Translations under genes and position numbers: made by a program
Shown here: one piece after another, positions 6,239 through 14,027 of the stretch
Position numbering within the stretch: the stretch's first letter is position 1
Layout of the letters: the number at the start of each line of letters is the position of its first letter
The notes under the pieces: generated by a model
What the model was told of the DNA's origin: nothing
What the model saw: the letters and a program-made list of their open reading frames with translations, nothing else
Database searches by the model: none
Origin: a virus
Virus genome (UHGV): UHGV-0174327
DNA length: 20,119 bases
Direction: 5' to 3' (one strand)

Positions 6239-8005
6239 ATGAACACCACACTGACACCCGCAGATCTCGATCCCCGTCGGCAGGCCATGCTGCTGTACTT
6301 TCAGGGATACCGCGTCGCCCGCATTGCTGAAATGCTGGGCGAGAAAGTTGCAACTGTTCACAGCTGGAAAAAACGCGACAAGTGGGGTGACTATGGGCCG
6401 CTGGATCAGATGCAGCTCACCACCGCCGCACGCTACTGCCAGCTCATTATGAAGGAGCACAAAGAAGGGAAAGATTTCAAAGAGATTGACCTGCTGGCGC
6501 GCCAGTCGGAGCGCCACGCGCGGATCGGCAAGTTTAACAATGGCGGCAACGAAGCCGACTTAAACCCTAACGTCGCCAACCGCAACAAAGGCCCACGCCG
6601 TCAGCCGGAAAAGAATGTTTTCACCGATGAACAGATTGAGAAGCTGGAAGAAATCTTCCATTCCTCCATGTTCAACTACCAGCGCCACTGGTGGGAAGCC
6701 GGAAAAACCAACCGCATCCGCAACCTGCTGAAGTCACGCCAGATCGGCGCAACCTTCTATTTTGCCCGTGAAGCCCTGATTGACGCCCTGCTGACCGGAC
6801 GTAACCAGATTTTCCTTTCCGCCAGCAAGGCACAGGCCCACGTCTTTAAGCAGTACATCTTCGACTTCGCCAAAGAAGTGGAGGTGGAGCTGAAAGGTGA
6901 TCCGATGGTGCTTCCTAACGGTGCCACGCTTTACTTCCTCGGCACCAATGCCCGCACTGCCCAGAGTTATCACGGCAACCTGTATCTGGATGAATATTTC
7001 TGGATACCGAAATTTCAGGAGCTGCGTAAAGTGGCTTCCGGTATGGCTATTCACAAAAAATGGCGACAAACCTATTTTTCCACGCCATCAAGCCTGACCC
7101 ACAGTGCTTATCCGTTCTGGTCCGGTGCGCTGTTCAACCGTGGACGCAACAAAGCCGACAAGGTGGACATCGACCTGTCCCACAGCAATCTGGCCCCCGG
7201 CCTGCTGTGCGCAGACGGGCAATACCGCCAGATAGTCACCGTGGAAGATGCGGTGCGCGGCGGCTGCAACCTGTTCGACCTTGACCAGTTGCGCATGGAG
7301 TACAGCCCGGACGAATACCAGAACCTGCTGATGTGCGAGTTTGTGGACGATCTCGCGTCCGTGTTTCCGCTCAGCGAGCTGCAGGCGTGCATGGTGGACA
7401 GTTGGGAAGTCTGGACCGACTTTCATGCACTGGCCCTTCGCCCGTTTGGGTGGCGCGAAGTGTGGATCGGTTATGACCCGGCAAAAGGTACGCAGAACGG
7501 CGACAGCGCCGGATGCGTGGTGGTGGCACCGCCAGCCGTGCCGGGCGGTAAGTTCCGTATTCTTGAGCGCCACCAGTGGCGCGGGATGGACTTCCGCGCC
7601 CAGGCGGACGCCATCAAAAAACTGACCGAACAGTACAACGTGACATATATCGGCATCGACTCGACGGGTGTCGGTCACGGGGTTTACGAGAACGTGAAAG
7701 CGTTTTTTCCTGCCGTCCGGGAGTTTGTCTACAACCCCAACGTTAAAAATGCCCTGGTACTCAAGGCATACGACATTATCAGCCACCGCCGTCTGGAGTT
7801 TGACGCCGGGCACACCGACATTGCGCAGTCATTCATGGCAATCCGTCGCGCCACCACCGCCAGTGGCAACCGCCCGACCTATGAAGCCAGCCGCAGCGAA
7901 GAAGCCAGCCACGCCGATCTGGCCTGGGCAACGATGCACGCACTGTTTAATGAACCGCTGCAGGGCGAGTCCGCCAATACAAGCAATATTGTGGAGATTT
8001 TTTGA
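6239..8005 (+). CDS. P: terminase large (ATPase) subunit (P2 gpP family)
   Basis: 588 aa; family-typical length and sequence; divergent from O as in P2. Confidence 0.9.
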   Translation: MNTTLTPADLDPRRQAMLLYFQGYRVARIAEMLGEKVATVHSWKKRDKWGDYGPLDQMQLTTAARYCQLIMKEHKEGKDFKEIDLLARQSERHARIGKFNNGGNEADLNPNVANRNKGPRRQPEKNVFTDEQIEKLEEIFHSSMFNYQRHWWEAGKTNRIRNLLKSRQIGATFYFAREALIDALLTGRNQIFLSASKAQAHVFKQYIFDFAKEVEVELKGDPMVLPNGATLYFLGTNARTAQSYHGNLYLDEYFWIPKFQELRKVASGMAIHKKWRQTYFSTPSSLTHSAYPFWSGALFNRGRNKADKVDIDLSHSNLAPGLLCADGQYRQIVTVEDAVRGGCNLFDLDQLRMEYSPDEYQNLLMCEFVDDLASVFPLSELQACMVDSWEVWTDFHALALRPFGWREVWIGYDPAKGTQNGDSAGCVVVAPPAVPGGKFRILERHQWRGMDFRAQADAIKKLTEQYNVTYIGIDSTGVGHGVYENVKAFFPAVREFVYNPNVKNALVLKAYDIISHRRLEFDAGHTDIAQSFMAIRRATTASGNRPTYEASRSEEASHADLAWATMHALFNEPLQGESANTSNIVEIF

Positions 8006-9051
8006 TGGGAAAGAGTAAGAAAAACCGCGCTGCGGCGATGAATCACATCCAGCATAAAAGCCAGACTTCAGCCGAAGCATTCAGCTTCGGCGATCCCGTT
8101 CCTGTTCTGGACCGCCGAGAATTACTGGACTATGTGGAATGCGTACAGATGGACCGTTGGTATGAGCCGCCCGTCAGCTTTGACGGACTGGCGCGCACCT
8201 TCCGCGCCGCCGTGCATCACAGTTCCCCGATTGCAGTAAAGTGCAACATTCTGACCAGTACCTATATCCCTCATCCGCTGCTCAGCCAGCAGGCTTTTTC
8301 GCGTTTTGTGCAGGACTATCTGGTATTTGGTAACGCCTACCTGGAGAAACGCACGAACCGCTTCGGTGAAGTTATCGCCCTTGAACCGACCCTGGCAAAA
8401 TACACCCGACGCGGATTAGACCTGGATACCTACTGGTTTGTGCAATACGGCATGACTACGCAGCCGTATCAGTTCACGAAAGGCAGCATTTTTCATCTGA
8501 TGGAACCGGACATCAACCAGGAGATCTACGGCCTGCCCGGTTATCTTTCTGCCATTCCGTCAGCCCTGCTCAACGAGTCCGCCACGCTGTTCCGCCGCAA
8601 GTATTACATTAACGGCAGTCATGCAGGCTTCATCATGTACATGACCGATGCAGCGCAGAACCAGGAGGATGTGAACAACCTCCGCAATGCGATGAAAAGC
8701 GCCAAAGGTCCTGGTAACTTCCGTAACCTGTTTATGTACTCGCCTAACGGTAAAAAGGACGGGCTTCAGATTATCCCGTTGTCAGAAGTGGCGGCGAAGG
8801 ATGAGTTCCTGAATATCAAGAACGTGAGCCGGGACGACATGATGGCGGCGCATCGTGTGCCGCCACAAATGATGGGGATAATGCCTAATAATGTCGGGGG
8901 GTTTGGGGATGTAGAAAAGGCAAGCCGTGTCTTTGTCCGCAACGAGTTGATACCTCTGCAGAAACGCCTACAGGAACTTAACAACTGGCTGGGCGATGAA
9001 GTTATACGTTTCGAGCCGTACACTTTAGATATTCAGAATGAAAAGAAATAA
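8005..9051 (+). CDS. Q: portal protein (P2 gpQ family)
   Basis: ATG at 8005 overlaps P stop (TGATG); 348 aa; sequence and length fit P2 Q. Confidence 0.9.
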   Translation: MGKSKKNRAAAMNHIQHKSQTSAEAFSFGDPVPVLDRRELLDYVECVQMDRWYEPPVSFDGLARTFRAAVHHSSPIAVKCNILTSTYIPHPLLSQQAFSRFVQDYLVFGNAYLEKRTNRFGEVIALEPTLAKYTRRGLDLDTYWFVQYGMTTQPYQFTKGSIFHLMEPDINQEIYGLPGYLSAIPSALLNESATLFRRKYYINGSHAGFIMYMTDAAQNQEDVNNLRNAMKSAKGPGNFRNLFMYSPNGKKDGLQIIPLSEVAAKDEFLNIKNVSRDDMMAAHRVPPQMMGIMPNNVGGFGDVEKASRVFVRNELIPLQKRLQELNNWLGDEVIRFEPYTLDIQNEKK

Positions 9052-9079
9052 AAGTTAGCGAATAAAAATCATTAGCATA

Positions 9080-9098
9080 GGCCGCAAACTGAGCGGCC
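9080..9098. terminator. bidirectional hairpin terminator between portal (+) and the 89-aa gene (-)
   Basis: GGCCGC-aaactga-GCGGCC followed by T-rich tract on + strand and by A/T-rich run on - strand. Confidence 0.45.
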
Positions 9099-9105
9099 TT
9101 ATTCA

Positions 9106-9375
9106 TTACCAATTTCTTTTTTCGGAGTTTAGCCAATCACCGCATGGATAATATCTTGACGCCCATTCACCTTGTAAACGAGCTACAAACAGAATATCGT
9201 TACTATCGACCCTGGCTTGGAGTCCGTCACGCAGTTGAGTTGCGGTCAGCGTTGTATCTACTAACCAAAATGATTCAAGATATTTACAGTATGTAAATTG
9301 CTTTAGATAGTCAAAAACTTCATCGTAGTTTCTTCCCGGAGCCTTCAAGTCATAGGTTATACAATAAATAGCCAT
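9106..9375 (-). CDS. hypothetical 89-aa soluble protein (accessory cassette B, distal gene)
   Basis: MAIYCITYDLKAPGRNYDEVFDYLKQF...DSNDILFVARL; AT-rich; 3 nt downstream of the zinc-ribbon ORF; alternating beta/alpha pattern vaguely reminiscent of VapD/Cas2-like small proteins (unverified). Confidence 0.55.
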   Translation of the reverse strand: MAIYCITYDLKAPGRNYDEVFDYLKQFTYCKYLESFWLVDTTLTATQLRDGLQARVDSNDILFVARLQGEWASRYYPCGDWLNSEKRNW

Positions 9376-9378
9376 TCT

Positions 9379-9561
9379 CTAAGCTCCGCATTTTTTATCA
9401 TTTGGGGAACATCTTAACCTGCGACATTTGCGGCAATACGATTGAGGGATCAGCCGCTCTCCTTCCATAGTTCTAAAACCAAACACTTCTTCAATTTTGT
9501 TCAAATCACCACTTGCAATAACCCCACAGCAGGGGCAGACAGCCTCAATTTGAAATGCCAT
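9379..9561 (-). CDS. hypothetical ~60-aa zinc-ribbon protein (accessory cassette B, proximal gene)
   Basis: MAFQIEAVCPCCGV...CRKCRRLRC with CxxC...CxxC spacing; ATG at 9561 preceded by GGAGA (spacing 5); ORF-track start 9624 is an upstream extension. Confidence 0.5.
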   Translation of the reverse strand: MAFQIEAVCPCCGVIASGDLNKIEEVFGFRTMEGERLIPQSYCRKCRRLRCSPNDKKCGA

Positions 9562-9660
9562 GTCTATCTCCATTCCACATGTTGAATGTAGGGTAATACT
9601 TCCTTTCAAGCAAAAATGAGACAAGGATCTTGAAACCTAATTTAAACTTGCTTGCGCGCG

Positions 9661-9679
9661 CTCGTATCCCCGCCACGCC
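9661..9679 (-). other. cos-like site (cohesive-end sequence) of the prophage
   Basis: Reverse complement reads GGCGTGGCGGGGATACGAG followed by CGCGCGC; the P2/P4 cohesive end as I recall it is GGCGAGGCGGGGAAAGCAC followed by TGCGCGC (14/19 identical); location downstream of portal Q is where P2 has cos. Confidence 0.45.
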
Positions 9680-9714
9680 TGCCCGCTTTTTGTAGCGATT
9701 TTCATGCAGGTGCA

Positions 9715-9748
9715 TGACATAAGCAAAAGCCCACCAGAACTGGCGGGC
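9715..9748 (-). terminator. rho-independent terminator ending the three-gene cassette A
   Basis: Stem GCCCACCAG/CTGGCGGGC (one mismatch) followed on the minus strand by UUUUGCUU. Confidence 0.4.
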
Positions 9749-9796
9749 CTCAGCAAAAACGATCCTCAAACGATCATGCATATTCATGCGGCATAG

Positions 9797-10306
9797 TCAT
9801 GCAGTGACTTTGGTCTGGTCAGGCGTAGAAAAATCTTCGAAAGATTTATAAGTTTCAGTATCAAATATTGAAATACTCTCAACCTGATCCATTGGGATTA
9901 CATGCCTAAAATGATTTAAGTTCAGTGGAGTTGAGTCTGCTGTAATATTTTTACTAAGGTAAAGTTCATAGTAACGATGCTGCTCATGGTATCTGAGCGT
10001 ATCTTTATCACGATAACCACTGATGTATGGTATGAGAGCCAGATGCTGAGTTTCCTGATGCTCCATCCGAGGAGCAGCTACGTAACCAATGTAAACTTTT
10101 CTGGATTTTAGCGTAACAAAGATGAGCTTACCTTCATCTATAGCCTGAACTAACAGTGACTCAATTCCATCTTGAGCTGCCATCTCGCGATATGCAGATT
10201 GACGAATCTCTTCGTTTTCTATTGCTCTTCGCGCATTGTTACCTTGGTCATAAGCAATAAACACCGCAAGCAGCATAGACAACACAAAGAACAATGGGTA
10301 AGACAT
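9797..10306 (-). CDS. hypothetical ~169-aa protein with N-terminal TM helix and soluble C-terminal domain (cassette A, gene 3)
   Basis: MSYPLFFVLSMLLAVFIAY then hydrophilic domain; start at ATG 10306 five nt after the gene-2 stop (ORF-track 10342 is a GTG extension overlapping gene 2); AT-rich. Confidence 0.55.
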   Translation of the reverse strand: MSYPLFFVLSMLLAVFIAYDQGNNARRAIENEEIRQSAYREMAAQDGIESLLVQAIDEGKLIFVTLKSRKVYIGYVAAPRMEHQETQHLALIPYISGYRDKDTLRYHEQHRYYELYLSKNITADSTPLNLNHFRHVIPMDQVESISIFDTETYKSFEDFSTPDQTKVTA

Positions 10307-10311
10307 TATCT

Positions 10312-10578
10312 TTACGTCTGTGAGCCATGAATAAAAGTCCACATGTAACTTAGGCCAAAAATAACCAAAAAATTGATAACTGAGCTTATAACTAGCAAGG
10401 TAACGAATGTAACAGCCATCAGAGTAAACCCCTGAATAGCAAACTTACAACCATGCATAGCTACATAAAAATAGGAATTCCAACCATTACTTCTTGCTTG
10501 CCTGATGCGGGACTGGTAATGATTTTCGGTGTACCAGAACCCGCAAACCAGGACGACCATGATAACTAAGGGTCCCAT
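10312..10578 (-). CDS. hypothetical 88-aa integral membrane protein, two predicted TM segments (cassette A, gene 2)
   Basis: PLVIMVVLVCGFWY and FTLMAVTFVTLLVISSVINFLVIFGLSYMW hydrophobic stretches; start coupled to gene-1 stop (AAGGATGAGGAATG). Confidence 0.55.
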   Translation of the reverse strand: MGPLVIMVVLVCGFWYTENHYQSRIRQARSNGWNSYFYVAMHGCKFAIQGFTLMAVTFVTLLVISSVINFLVIFGLSYMWTFIHGSQT

Positions 10579-11586: not shown

Positions 11587-11943
11587 TTAATACAGGTTCC
11601 GCCACTTATCATCTTCCTTCAGACGCTGGTTCCGATAGAAGATACGCAGGCCTGCTCCTGACGGAATACTGCCACCGCGAAGGAGTAAATCGACCTCTTT
11701 CTCGCTGCCATCAAATCCTCTGGACTTCAGTTCATAGACGAGCTGCTGTCGTTGATGGTCTGTAATTCGCTGTTTGTAGTCTCTACGCCGTTTCGGTTTC
11801 ACCAGGCGTAACCTTACAGCCAGCTCCCGGCGCTCTTTTTTGTTCATACTGTGCAGAAAATCGTGCAACTCCTTGTCATCCATGCGGGTAATATCCGTTC
11901 TGGTGTCCCCATCAGCTGATTTATCTTTCTCCTGTTGGTTCAA
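11587..11943 (-). CDS. hypothetical basic protein downstream of and overlapping replication gene A; start uncertain (TTG 11943, or ATG 11883)
   Basis: Lys/Arg-rich ([22 protein letters not shown]); no strong SD at any candidate start; conserved position after A in P2-like phages. Confidence 0.4.
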
Positions 11944-14027
11944 ATTTTCAGCAAGGGGACAGTTATTGCCACGAGTCCAAGGGGACAGTTATTGCCACGA
12001 GTCCAAGGGGCGCAAGCGCCCTGGTCGGCTGCCGCCTCCTGAACGTCAACGGCCTTACGAACCATTTTCCACTTCACTGCATGAGTGCAGATCTTGCCCT
12101 CTGCAATGGGTGACCAGATGCCATAAATACGAATACCGTGATCACCATAGGCGGTCGGCTCTTCGTTGATTTCATAAGCGGTTCTGATCAAGTGATATTT
12201 GCGGGGAACCAACACGCCGCCCTGCTTCATAATGTAGGTGGCAAAACAGCCAGCATCAGCAGCAGCCAGAATGGCATCAAGACGCGGATCATCCAGTACC
12301 GGCGCACCTGCTTTTTTGTCACCCTGCTGCCTTGCCGCCTGACCAGCCAGCAATCGCAGTTCACGGTAAGCCTGACGCCCCGGAATGCCAAAGAAGCGGA
12401 ATTGCTGAACACGATGCAGAGACGCCCAGGCATTAACGTATTCAGCGTTATCACGCAGGGATTTACCCGTTTCCTTGCTGATCTCGCCAGCCAGACCACG
12501 CCCGTCAATGTTCTTACTGATGTATTTCGCGATGTAGCTTGTCGGCGTTCCTTTGCGCGGGTTAATCAGCTCAGACTTAAAGCGTGGCCCCGTGTTATTG
12601 CCCAGTTCCTCGCGGTCTTCACGGATGGCAAACTTACGCAGTAATGCAGTGATGGCGCGGCGGTCTTTTTTACGCATGAAGCACATGAGATGCCAGTGCA
12701 CAGTACCGTCATGATGCGGCTCAGCCACCCGCACGCCATACCACCGCAATCCGGCTTTGTGCATCGCCTTACGAAATGCAGCAAACATGCCGACCAGATA
12801 ATCACTGCTTTGTCTTACCGTCGCATTTGTCCAGGTCGGGTTTGGTCTGCCGTTATTGAGCGTGGAATGGAAACGTGACGGACAGGTGATGGTGTAGAAA
12901 ACGGCGCAGTCACCGCGCATTTCCGCGATAAGCTCCAGACCTTTAACGCAGGCCATCATCTCATTGCGGCGATGTGCCGGGTTGCTGCTGCTGGCGTTTA
13001 CCACATCTTCCATATCCAGCGTGTCTCCGTCTTCGTTCACCAGTTCATGAGAACGGAAAAACTCCAGCGACTTGCGGCGCTGCTCACGTTTATGCGTCAC
13101 TGCTTCATAGCTGACATAGGGAGATGCTTTTTTGCTGACCAGACAGACAGCACGCAACTGCTCTTCCCGCCATTCGCAACGCATCTTCCACAATTTTCGA
13201 TACCACCAGTCGGCGCAAAGCATACGTGCCAGCGAACCCGGTATGAGTTCATAGGGCACAGGTTTGCGGCGGTTTCTTTTCCGACGAAGTTTCTCAAACG
13301 CAGGCGGGATAACATCCAGACGCAGGGTTTCCGCAGCCACCTTTTCCCATGTCTTGCGGATTTCTTCTGGCTTAACGTCATCGGTGGCGTACAAATCACC
13401 ACAAGCGGCCTCAAGACACATGCTCATATGCGCTGCTACCAGGGTGGACAGGCGTTTCACCTGATCCTGGCTCATTTCAGGCAGGATCAGCAGCCCCTCC
13501 AGCCCTTGATGGCTTGCCATAAAACGGAAAGAAACAGATAGCTGACTGTCACGTACACAATCCAGTCGCTCCAGACATGGCTTAATCGTCTCACGCAAAT
13601 AGCGGGAATAAGCCTTTGGCCTGCCCAGGCTGCTGAAGTATTCGATACGTTGCATCAGCGGCTTGCTGATATGAGAAGGCTGGGCGCTGACATCTGCCAG
13701 AATGACCATGTCCGGGTTAAAACGCTGCTGCTCATGCGCCAGCTTTGCCCGGCTAATGAGCTTATCCTGCTCCATTTCGCGCTGGACAGGATCACGGGAT
13801 TCATTAAAGAAATAACGCTCCCAGACCTGCTCACTCAGTGCCTCGCGGCGCAGTTGTTCCTGCTCGTTATCGGCAGCGTACAGAGTGATCAGGTTTGAAA
13901 GTGCAGACTCCGGCGCAACTTCCGCCGGATCCAGATAAGGGTTAATGGCCTTTTTCGGGCCGTTCCATGAAAATGCTGCGGCAGCCTCGTTAAAGCCGCT
14001 AGAGTTGCTCATATCGTCATGACTCAT
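11940..14027 (-). CDS. A: replication initiation endonuclease (P2/186 gpA family, rolling-circle initiator)
   Basis: 695 aa, size and sequence consistent with 186/P2 A; ATG at 14027 overlaps dam stop (ATGA). Confidence 0.85.
11952..12010. repeat. tandem direct repeat, 26 bp x 2.3 (CAAGGGGACAGTTATTGCCACGAGTC) inside the 3' end of gene A
   Basis: Copies at 11952..11977 and 11978..12003 are identical; partial third copy CAAGGGG at 12004..12010, followed by palindrome GGGCGCaaGCGCCC. Confidence 0.85.

What the first reader, a model, noticed from the sequence alone, without database searches (positions are those of the whole stretch)
9106..9624. Two-gene cassette (zinc-ribbon protein + 89-aa protein) wedged between the portal gene and cos: second candidate accessory/defense or toxin-antitoxin module
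In P2 the portal gene ends about 170 bp from the left cohesive end, with no gene in between as far as I recall. Here about 610 bp separate portal from the cos-like site and hold two tightly linked minus-strand genes (3-nt spacing): a ~60-aa CxxC...CxxC zinc-ribbon protein (9379..9561, SD GGAGA) and an 89-aa alpha/beta-looking protein (9106..9375). A plausible promoter lies at 9580..9650 (TTGCTT-N17-TACATT on the minus strand) and a bidirectional terminator at 9080..9098. The cassette is AT-rich. A small zinc-binding protein with a small partner is typical of toxin-antitoxin or compact defense modules; the 89-aa protein has an N-terminal IYCITYDL strand loosely reminiscent of VapD/Cas2-like folds, but I cannot verify this. 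The insertion point at the extreme genome end is itself unusual.
Basis: partly seen in the sequence, partly recalled or inferred. Interest (0 to 1): 0.75.

Follow-up and report, generated by a model that had tools for sequence, protein, structure and literature searches.

The report
Solo Cas2-like gene beside phage cos
A P2-like prophage carries, between its portal gene and its DNA-packaging site, a rare two-gene accessory operon made of a small zinc-ribbon protein and a stand-alone relative of the CRISPR protein Cas2; it sits in a known hotspot for anti-phage genes, but its function is untested.

Summary
Two minus-strand genes (zinc ribbon 9379-9561, 89 aa 9106-9375) lie between portal Q (stop 9051) and the cos core (9661-9679). 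[quoted passage not shown] Its wider family overlaps Pfam CRISPR_Cas2.

Two claims fail. The Q-cos slot is not unusual: Fels-2 and three other Peduoviridae carry cargo there, including TIR and RloB/ATPase genes, and it lies inside the published gpA-gpQ hotspot. The two genes are also not an obligate pair. The zinc-ribbon gene occurs alone in P2-like phages and on plasmids, and beside a methylase gene in Vibrio. The Cas2-like family is large and usually solo. It appears as opposite-strand morons in temperate phages, or beside CBASS, Menshen-like, KAP, OLD-like and Thoeris genes.

Best reading: a lysogen-expressed accessory operon, probably an anti-phage nuclease with a nucleic-acid-binding partner (inferred). 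A toxin-antitoxin pair and counter-defence remain possible. The cassette is rare: 8 of 1249 E. coli genomes that carry such a portal gene. Moderate interest; a new variant of a known kind.

The parts
9379..9561 (-). 60-aa zinc-ribbon protein gene. Core motif is C9-P-C-C12 ... FGFR ... QSYC43-R-x-C46-R, with a basic C-terminus and no histidine.
9106..9375 (-). 89-aa stand-alone Cas2/VapD-superfamily protein gene. Near-invariant residues are Y8, D9, L10, Y17, S35, W37, D57, D60, W71 and W81.
9079..9099 (.). Hairpin terminator shared by the convergent portal gene and the cassette.
   Evidence: Found by the scan. The GGCCGC/GCGGCC stem is conserved and the loop varies in relatives. It corresponds in position to P2 tQ.
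9562..9660 (-). Upstream region of the cassette, between the cos core and the zinc-ribbon ATG. It holds conserved blocks TTTCAAGA, GTCTCATTTT, TTACCCTAC and the SD GGAGA. It is presumed to be a promoter or operator, but this is not demonstrated.
   Evidence: The blocks travel with the zinc-ribbon gene in all P2-like loci, including L104 and L106. There is no sigma-70 match of 9/12 or better and no Ogr-type TGT-N12-ACA dyad.
9661..9679 (-). cos core (cohesive-end site) of the P2-like prophage.
   Evidence: Aligned to the P2 cos junction. It lies inside the 152-bp block 9652-9803 that is conserved across Peduoviridae.
8002..9051 (+). Portal gene (gpQ homologue), convergent with the cassette. It forms the left boundary of the cargo slot.
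   Evidence: ORF. Annotated as phage portal protein in E. coli S56 at 100% identity.

Best explanation
The cassette is a bicistronic accessory (moron) operon in the cos-proximal gpQ-gpA cargo hotspot of a P2-like prophage. It was assembled from two small genes that also circulate separately.

The first gene encodes a 60-aa Cys4 zinc-ribbon protein. It brings its own upstream control region and is probably a nucleic-acid-binding regulator or adaptor. The second gene sits between the zinc-ribbon stop codon and the terminator. It encodes a stand-alone member of the Cas2/VapD superfamily that keeps the acidic residues of the Cas2 active site.

The most likely function is inferred, not shown. The Cas2-like protein would act as a homodimeric small nuclease expressed from the prophage. 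It would exclude or abort infection by competing phages, as other cargo of this hotspot does. The zinc-ribbon protein would be co-translated with it and would tune or target it.

Shown here: gene reality, fold, family membership at superfamily level, accessory status, hotspot location, and independent distribution of the two genes. Inferred: nuclease activity, expression in the lysogen, anti-phage role, and any physical interaction between the two proteins.
For: Fold and homology:
- The AF2 model has pLDDT 90.
- PADLOC Cas2 models match weakly.
- 62 of 135 relatives hit Pfam CRISPR_Cas2, best E 1.7e-9.
- The family profile aligns its YD, SxW and DxxD motifs onto B. halodurans Cas2.
- A tandem two-domain fusion, P0061, fits a dimeric working unit.

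Accessory status and hotspot:
- 8 of 5426 E. coli genomes carry the cassette, against 1249 with a related portal gene.
- An identical cassette is combined with different A-side cargo in strain S56.
- The slot lies within the gpA-gpQ hotspot of Rousset et al. 2022. Three of eight further systems cloned from that hotspot, plus old-tin, gave defence (PMC9122126).
- WP_001580536 is listed there only as 'hypothetical'.
- The same Q-cos slot holds TIR-domain and RloB/ATPase genes in related phages.

Family context:
- Distant homologues are the first gene before CBASS Cap5 plus CD-NTase, before NsnB plus NsnC without NsnA, before a KAP NTPase (PDC-S20) and before an OLD-like ATPase.
- One homologue lies beside Thoeris genes.
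- In temperate phages the gene lies antisense to lytic or structural operons, often on the cI strand.
- Only 45% of neighbours are co-oriented with it, against 63% background, p = 1e-4.

Operon structure: a 2-3 nt junction conserved across relatives, with an SD inside the end of the upstream gene.
Against: - No experiment exists, and no known defence-system model matches either protein beyond weak Cas2 hits.
- No convincing promoter was found, so expression in the lysogen is assumed.
- Only about one in eight distant loci has a strong defence gene as an immediate neighbour. Some neighbours are counter-defence genes: one neighbour hits Pfam Acb1, and one looks DUF2829/Tad2-like from its sequence, judged by eye and not tested.
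- The window protein itself does not reach any Pfam Cas2 threshold.
- The role of the zinc-ribbon protein is a guess from composition and gene position.
- Gene calls used in the context statistics were crude ORF calls.
Confidence: 0.42

Rival explanations
1. Type II toxin-antitoxin module. The Cas2/VapD-like protein is an endoribonuclease toxin. The upstream zinc-ribbon protein is its DNA-binding, autoregulating antitoxin. The pair would stabilise the prophage or trigger abortive infection.
For: - Antitoxin-first order, small sizes and a 2-3 nt coupling between the genes.
- The decay pattern is asymmetric. L101 and L102 lost most of the Cas2-like gene but keep an intact zinc-ribbon gene. No P2-like locus has the Cas2-like gene without the zinc-ribbon gene.
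Against: - The Cas2-like family is large: 1269 clusters at E<=1e-10, and 4196 at E<=1e-3, the looser count possibly including true Cas2. It has no conserved partner.
- It is often flanked on both sides by opposite-strand genes. That is hard to reconcile with a constitutively toxic protein.
- The zinc-ribbon family lives alone on plasmids and in P2-like phages, and beside a methyltransferase in Vibrio cassettes with its own terminator.
- The asymmetry is also expected simply because the upstream gene carries the promoter.
Confidence: 0.2
2. Counter-defence. One or both proteins help the phage against host immunity. Examples would be a Cas2 decoy that poisons Cas1-Cas2 spacer acquisition, or a small nuclease or binder that removes an immune signal.
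For: - The proteins are small and sit at the extreme end of the packaged genome.
- Some relatives neighbour counter-defence genes. One neighbour hits Pfam Acb1. One looks like a DUF2829/Tad2 protein, judged by eye from its sequence and not tested.
Against: - In temperate phages the gene is typically antisense to the lytic operons, which points to expression in the lysogen rather than early in infection.
- Relatives are tightly coupled first genes of bacterial defence operons.
- From general knowledge, not tested here, E. coli type I-E Cas2 belongs to a different Cas2 family, so a decoy role in this host is unlikely.
Confidence: 0.12
3. Two functionally unrelated small morons that merely share a transcript. 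The role would be something other than immunity, for example modulation of lysogeny, RNA turnover or host physiology.
For: - Each gene is found without the other in many elements.
- In Firmicutes phages the Cas2-like gene sits right at the cI/cro switch.
- About 87% of PHROG families, including both of these, have no known function.
Against: - The tight junction has been kept across relatives that differ at many synonymous sites.
- Defence-gene neighbourhoods recur for the Cas2-like family.
- The locus lies in a slot that otherwise holds defence genes.
Confidence: 0.2
4. Conserved core genes with a packaging or virion role at cos.
For: The cassette lies immediately next to cos. The zinc-ribbon gene keeps this position in several P2-like lineages.
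Against: - The cassette is absent from P2 and from more than 99% of E. coli P2-like prophages.
- The slot holds unrelated genes in other members.
- The zinc-ribbon family also occurs in integron-like cassettes and on plasmids.
Confidence: 0.02

Closest known systems
CRISPR-associated Cas2 (Pfam PF09827)
   Same: [quoted passage not shown] The aspartate at the end of beta1 (D9 here) is kept, as are the SxW/SVF and DxxD motifs. Many family members give weak but repeated profile matches.
   Different: There is no cas1, no CRISPR array and no other cas gene in the window or in related loci. The window protein itself is below every Pfam threshold. The family has its own tryptophans (W37, W71, W81) and a C-terminal helix. 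It lives in phages and defence islands as a solo gene.
VapD/VapX toxin-antitoxin system, and the solo Cas2-like proteins on mobile elements noted by Makarova et al. 2012 and Anantharaman et al. 2013
   Same: It belongs to the same superfamily and has a small upstream partner gene. Those authors recorded solo Cas2-like genes near recombinases and in integron cassettes as an unpublished or brief observation. One relative here follows three integrase genes (L006).
   Different: The partner is a zinc ribbon unrelated to VapX. No toxicity is known. Most family members have no partner at all.
BPSL1038 of Burkholderia pseudomallei (Cas2/VapD nuclease sub-family, PMC10491678)
Cargo of the P2 gpA-gpQ cos-proximal hotspot (old, tin and others; Rousset et al. 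2022)
   Same: It occupies the same interval, shows the same presence/absence polymorphism, and has the same orientation as cargo in the Q-cos slot of related phages. The 89-aa protein appears in their supplementary table as 'hypothetical'.
   Different: It was not among the systems they curated or tested. It is much smaller than the validated systems. It lies on the portal side of cos, whereas old and tin lie on the A side.
Menshen (NsnABC) and CBASS operons
   Same: Distant homologues of the 89-aa protein are the first gene of NsnB-NsnC operons and of a Cap5 plus CD-NTase operon.
   Different: None of those partner genes is present in the window. In the Menshen-like loci the Cas2-like gene stands where NsnA (ParB-DUF262) normally is (PMC12065111).

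Membership tests
Cas2 (PF09827 CRISPR_Cas2) | [quoted passage not shown] | tested here: met
Cas2 (PF09827 CRISPR_Cas2) | Conserved aspartate at the end of beta1 | tested here: met
   D9 is invariant or nearly invariant. It aligns with the YD of B. halodurans Cas2 in the profile alignment.
Cas2 (PF09827 CRISPR_Cas2) | Sequence match to the family model above the curated threshold | tested here: not met
   The window protein has no Cas2 hit in Pfam at E<=1 and only PADLOC Cas2b at E 5e-4. Relatives do match: 62 of 135 at E<=0.1, best 1.7e-9.
Cas2 (PF09827 CRISPR_Cas2) | Genomic association with cas1 and a CRISPR array | tested here: not met
   No Cas family other than Cas2 appears among the neighbour families returned. 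No cas1 shows up in the neighbour clustering. Arrays were not scanned for directly.
Type II toxin-antitoxin module (VapXD-like) | Two small adjacent co-oriented genes with overlapping or abutting reading frames | tested here: met
   The spacer is 3 nt here and 2-3 nt in relatives.
Type II toxin-antitoxin module (VapXD-like) | The two genes co-occur as an obligate pair across genomes | tested here: not met
   Among the 93 loci scanned, the zinc-ribbon gene was found only in 14 enterobacterial P2-like loci. The zinc-ribbon gene also occurs alone or with other genes.
Type II toxin-antitoxin module (VapXD-like) | Toxicity of one product, neutralised by the other | not testable with these tools
   This needs expression experiments.
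P2 gpA-gpQ cos-proximal hotspot cargo (Rousset et al. 2022) | Located between gpQ and gpA of a P2-like prophage and variably present among related phages | tested here: met
   Q ends at 9051, cos is at 9661-9679 and gpA is at 11940-14027. 8 of 1249 genomes with a related portal gene carry the cassette. The protein is listed in their supplementary table.
P2 gpA-gpQ cos-proximal hotspot cargo (Rousset et al. 2022) | Anti-phage activity | not testable with these tools
   It is not among the systems reported as tested.
Known defence systems in PADLOC-DB v2 | Match of the proteins to a system's models | tested here: not met
   Only weak Cas2 and Cas2b hits for the 89-aa protein, and none for the zinc ribbon.
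beta-beta-alpha-Me / HNH nucleases (for the zinc-ribbon protein) | Catalytic histidine in the beta-beta-alpha-metal motif | tested here: not met

The most novel reading that the evidence does not exclude
Stand-alone Cas2-like proteins of this family (phrog_1090, with no Pfam model) would be a widespread, so far unrecognised class of single-gene or plug-in immune modules. Temperate phages carry them as lysogen-expressed morons. Bacteria use them as the first, nucleic-acid-handling component of diverse defence operons, for example in the place of NsnA in Menshen-like systems. They would be free-living cousins of the CRISPR adaptation protein and would show what Cas2 did before CRISPR.
Probability: 0.22. 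Interest if true: 0.75.

Novelty: new variant of a known kind. Interest (0 to 1): 0.5.

Why it matters
Cas2 is universal in CRISPR systems, yet its own biochemical role and its origin are still debated. A large, compact family of solo Cas2-like proteins would give a tractable entry point to what this fold does outside CRISPR. This family keeps the catalytic residues and rides in prophage hotspots and defence islands.

For phage biology, the analysis shows that the portal side of cos in P2-like phages is a cargo slot in its own right. It also shows how small independent genes are stitched into operons there. The cassette is under 500 bp and easy to clone, so a defence, toxicity or nuclease phenotype can be tested directly.

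Tried and rejected
- Pfam, NCBIfam and PADLOC scans of both proteins gave no family beyond weak Cas2 hits.
- Sequence searches against solved structures gave nothing with the 11-sequence profile. The 135-sequence profile gave only marginal Cas2 hits, E 0.03-0.2.
- The BFVD viral fold library gave no informative match. The AFDB library was not available.
- The zinc-ribbon model matched only Hpy99I weakly. A mini-HNH nuclease reading was rejected because the protein has no histidine.
The sigma-70 scan found nothing of 9/12 or better in 9562-9660, and there is no Ogr-type late-promoter dyad.
- Rfam gave no RNA family in 8900-10000; the only match was a chance Trp_leader hit at E 0.45.
- Read-through fusion of the two in-frame ORFs was rejected. 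The junction differs in frame in L068, L070 and L001.
- No upstream DNA motif is shared between the enterobacterial, Vibrio and Providencia zinc-ribbon genes.
- Literature searches found no characterisation of either family.
- Multi-domain proteins that contain the Cas2-like domain (P0188, P0190, P0192) match no PADLOC system.

Full report
**Setting**

The window is a P2-like (Peduoviridae) prophage segment.
- The terminase ATPase gene is at 6239-8005 and the portal gene at 8002-9051, both on the plus strand.
- Alignment to the circularised ends of P2 places the cos core at 9661-9679 on the minus strand: GGCGTGGCGGGGATACGAG against P2 GGCGAGGCGGGGAAAGCAC.
- A 152-bp block, 9652-9803, is conserved in Fels-2, SopEPhi and many Klebsiella, Salmonella and Escherichia P2-like phages.
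- Beyond cos lie minus-strand accessory genes, including a DinI homologue, and then the replication gene gpA at 11940-14027.
In the packaged linear genome the cassette would begin 100 nt from the left cohesive end.

**The observation**

Both ORFs exist at the stated coordinates.
- The junction is TAG-AGA-ATG, and GGAG-type ribosome-binding sites precede both start codons.
- The hairpin at 9079-9099 is the only terminator-like site in the region. Its stem is conserved and its loop varies in relatives.
- GC content falls to 0.38-0.41.
- Against diverged relatives the zinc-ribbon gene has dN/dS 0.01-0.08 and the 89-aa gene 0.09-0.43, with dS up to more than 1. Both are real, constrained genes.

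The proposed promoter matches only 7 of 12 consensus positions. It was not found by the scan at 9/12, and its -10 element is not conserved. What is conserved upstream of the zinc-ribbon gene are other short blocks: TTTCAAGA, GTCTCATTTT and TTACCCTAC. They travel with that gene, and their role is unknown. There is no Ogr-type late-promoter dyad and no Rfam family.

**The 89-aa protein**

It matches no Pfam or NCBIfam family but matches phrog_1090, of unknown function.
- At sequence level the protein hits PADLOC Cas2b at E 5e-4.
- An exhaustive profile search found 4196 clusters (50% identity) at E<=1e-3 and 1269 at E<=1e-10. Almost all are about 90 aa. The looser count may include true Cas2 proteins.
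- Of 135 diverse members, 62 hit Pfam CRISPR_Cas2, best E 1.7e-9.
- The 135-member profile aligns its YD, SxW and DxxD motifs to B. halodurans Cas2, E 0.03.
- Nearly invariant residues are Y8, D9, L10, Y17, S35, W37, D57, D60, V64, W71 and W81.

D9 corresponds to the Asp at the end of beta1 that is the metal-binding catalytic residue in Cas2 nucleases. That link rests on established knowledge, and the same conserved Asp pair is described for BPSL1038 in PMC10491678. One family member is a tandem fusion of two such domains, which fits a dimeric working unit. The protein is therefore a divergent, stand-alone member of the Cas2/VapD superfamily. It is not a CRISPR Cas2, because no cas1 or other cas gene accompanies it here or in related loci.

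**The zinc-ribbon protein**

It matches phrog_19700.
- Its family has an invariant core, C-P-x-C ... FGFR ... QSYCRxCR. This is a classical two-knuckle Cys4 ribbon with conserved Arg, Gln and Tyr and a basic tail.
- Some NCBI records call it 'hemagglutinin'. Nothing here supports that name.

**Are the two genes a pair?**

In 14 enterobacterial P2-like loci they occur together with the same 2-3 nt junction. Otherwise they are independent.
- L106 has cos, the zinc-ribbon gene, a terminator and then the portal gene.
- L101 and L102 have the same layout but retain the last 35 nt or so of the Cas2-like gene. They are deletion derivatives.
- In Vibrio parahaemolyticus the zinc-ribbon gene has its own terminator and sits next to an N6/N4 methyltransferase gene, in what looks like an integron cassette.
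- On Providencia plasmids it stands alone.
- None of about 75 more distant Cas2-like loci has the zinc-ribbon gene, and no other neighbour family is conserved.

The simplest history is that a self-contained zinc-ribbon gene sat next to cos, and the Cas2-like ORF was inserted between its stop codon and its terminator.

**The slot and its rarity**

- The cassette is in 8 of 5426 complete E. coli genomes, whereas 1249 carry a related portal gene.
- Strain S56 has an identical cassette but different cargo on the gpA side of cos, so the two sides assort independently.
- The portal side of cos is a cargo slot in other Peduoviridae. It holds a 565-aa gene in Fels-2, a TIR-domain gene plus a small gene in phage 500465-1, a 477-aa TIR-domain gene in ST15-OXA48phi14.1, and an RloB-family plus ATP-binding pair in ST13-OXA48phi12.1. 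All have the cassette's orientation.
- Rousset et al. (PMC9122126) defined the P2 hotspot as the whole gpA-gpQ interval around cos and found anti-phage systems there.
- WP_001580536, the 89-aa protein, appears in their supplementary arrangement table only as 'hypothetical'.
- The location is therefore ordinary for this phage family and points to accessory, often defensive, cargo.

**What the wider Cas2-like family suggests**

In temperate phages the gene typically lies antisense to its neighbours.
- In Enterococcus phiFL phages and other Firmicutes prophages it sits at the cI/cro/antirepressor switch, on the cI strand.
- In others it lies between portal, terminase or head genes on the opposite strand.
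- With crude ORF calls, 45% of its neighbours are co-oriented with it, against 63% for other adjacent pairs in the same loci (p = 1e-4). In 7 of 14 viral loci both neighbours are on the other strand.
- This is the architecture of a moron expressed from the prophage.

In bacterial genomes several homologues are the first, tightly coupled gene of defence operons.
- One precedes Cap5 (SAVED-HNH) plus CD-NTase/E2 (L042).
- Two precede NsnB plus NsnC with no NsnA (L050, L053).
- One precedes a KAP NTPase, PDC-S20 (L007), and one an OLD-like ATPase (L020).
- A 64%-identical homologue sits beside Thoeris genes.
- One follows three integrase genes (L006). This echoes the brief remarks by Makarova et al. 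2012 and Anantharaman et al. 2013 on solo Cas2-like genes near recombinases and in integron cassettes.

The association is not universal. Only about one locus in eight has a strong defence neighbour. One neighbour hits Pfam Acb1, and one resembles DUF2829/Tad2 by eye; both are counter-defence families.

**Most likely mechanism and its rivals**

I favour a prophage-expressed accessory operon (confidence about 0.4). In this reading the Cas2-like protein acts as a small dimeric nuclease against competing phages, and the zinc-ribbon protein acts as a nucleic-acid-binding regulator or adaptor. This rests on fold, retained acidic residues, slot, orientation and neighbourhoods. Activity, expression and any interaction are inferred.

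A type II toxin-antitoxin pair (about 0.2) fits the gene order, the coupling, the VapD homology and the pattern that the toxin is lost while the antitoxin is kept. It clashes with the independent lives of both genes. Counter-defence (about 0.12) and two unrelated morons with a non-immune role (about 0.2) cannot be excluded. A core packaging role is contradicted by the distribution.

**Novelty**

Solo Cas2/VapD-like proteins on mobile elements have been noted before but not characterised. This family has no Pfam model, no published function that I could find and a new operon partner. I rate it a new variant of a known kind, of moderate interest.

Noticed in passing
window 11940-11990 (gpA, minus strand): The replication gene gpA is split by a frameshift. 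tblastn with the intact S56 gpA switches from frame -3 to -2 at about 11976-11988, next to a 12-nt direct repeat (AAGGGGACAGTT twice). This leaves ORFs of 695 and 118 aa. The prophage may be replication-defective, or this is an assembly error.
   Followed up: partly
window 9797-10578 (minus strand): A phrog_3630-like gene (profile length 274) is split into two overlapping ORFs: 10312-10578 matches profile positions 1-70 and 9797-10342 matches positions 74-260. This is a second apparent frameshift in the accessory region on the gpA side of cos.
   Followed up: partly
L104 2700-3900 (IMGVR_UViG_3300009036_000513): Here the zinc-ribbon gene is preceded by a degenerate copy of cos and followed by an intact cos block. 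A 104-aa gene then occupies the Q-cos slot. This suggests cos duplication or recombination as a way cargo moves between the two sides of cos.
   Followed up: partly
L101 and L102 3184-3270: P2-like loci with only the zinc-ribbon gene still carry the last 35 nt or so of the Cas2-like gene (GATTGGCTAAAC...TTGGTAA) before the terminator. The Cas2-like gene was lost by an internal deletion while the zinc-ribbon gene stayed intact.
   Followed up: yes
L050 4983-7329 and L053 1319-3676 (Flavobacterium aquatile, Psychroserpens sp.): The operon is Cas2-like, then NsnB, then NsnC, with no NsnA (ParB-DUF262) detected upstream. The solo Cas2-like gene stands where the Menshen sensor normally is. This may be an undescribed Menshen variant.
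   Followed up: partly
L042 5001-8093 (Pedobacter sp. ok626): A Cas2-like gene lies 5 nt upstream of a CBASS operon made of the Cap5 SAVED-HNH effector and a CD-NTase fused to E2.
   Followed up: no
L114-L117 4001-4904 (Vibrio parahaemolyticus): A zinc-ribbon homologue with its own terminator is always followed by a 220-aa N6/N4 DNA methyltransferase gene. Both sit among same-strand small cassettes flanked by attC-like repeats, so this is probably a chromosomal integron cassette.
   Followed up: partly
window 9705-9740 (minus strand): A conserved hairpin, GCCCGCCAG-nn-CTGGYGGGC, followed by TTTTGC lies inside the conserved cos block just upstream of the cos core. The loop varies, and a G-T pair becomes G-C in relatives. 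It could terminate transcription from the gpA-side accessory genes or be part of the terminase recognition site.
   Followed up: no
P0061 (184 aa): This protein consists of two tandem Cas2-like domains of this family, which fits a dimer as the functional unit.
   Followed up: partly
L122-L125 (marine metagenome contigs, P0008): A 64%-identical solo Cas2-like gene sits in an island with Thoeris ThsA (SIR2-STALD) and ThsB (TIR) genes and a Tae4 amidase gene, next to clpS and clpA.
   Followed up: no
L101 1546-2700: The P2-like phage that carries only the zinc-ribbon gene has an NsnA/PD-T4-2-like DUF262 gene as cargo on the gpA side of cos (PADLOC NsnA, E 2.5e-55).
   Followed up: no
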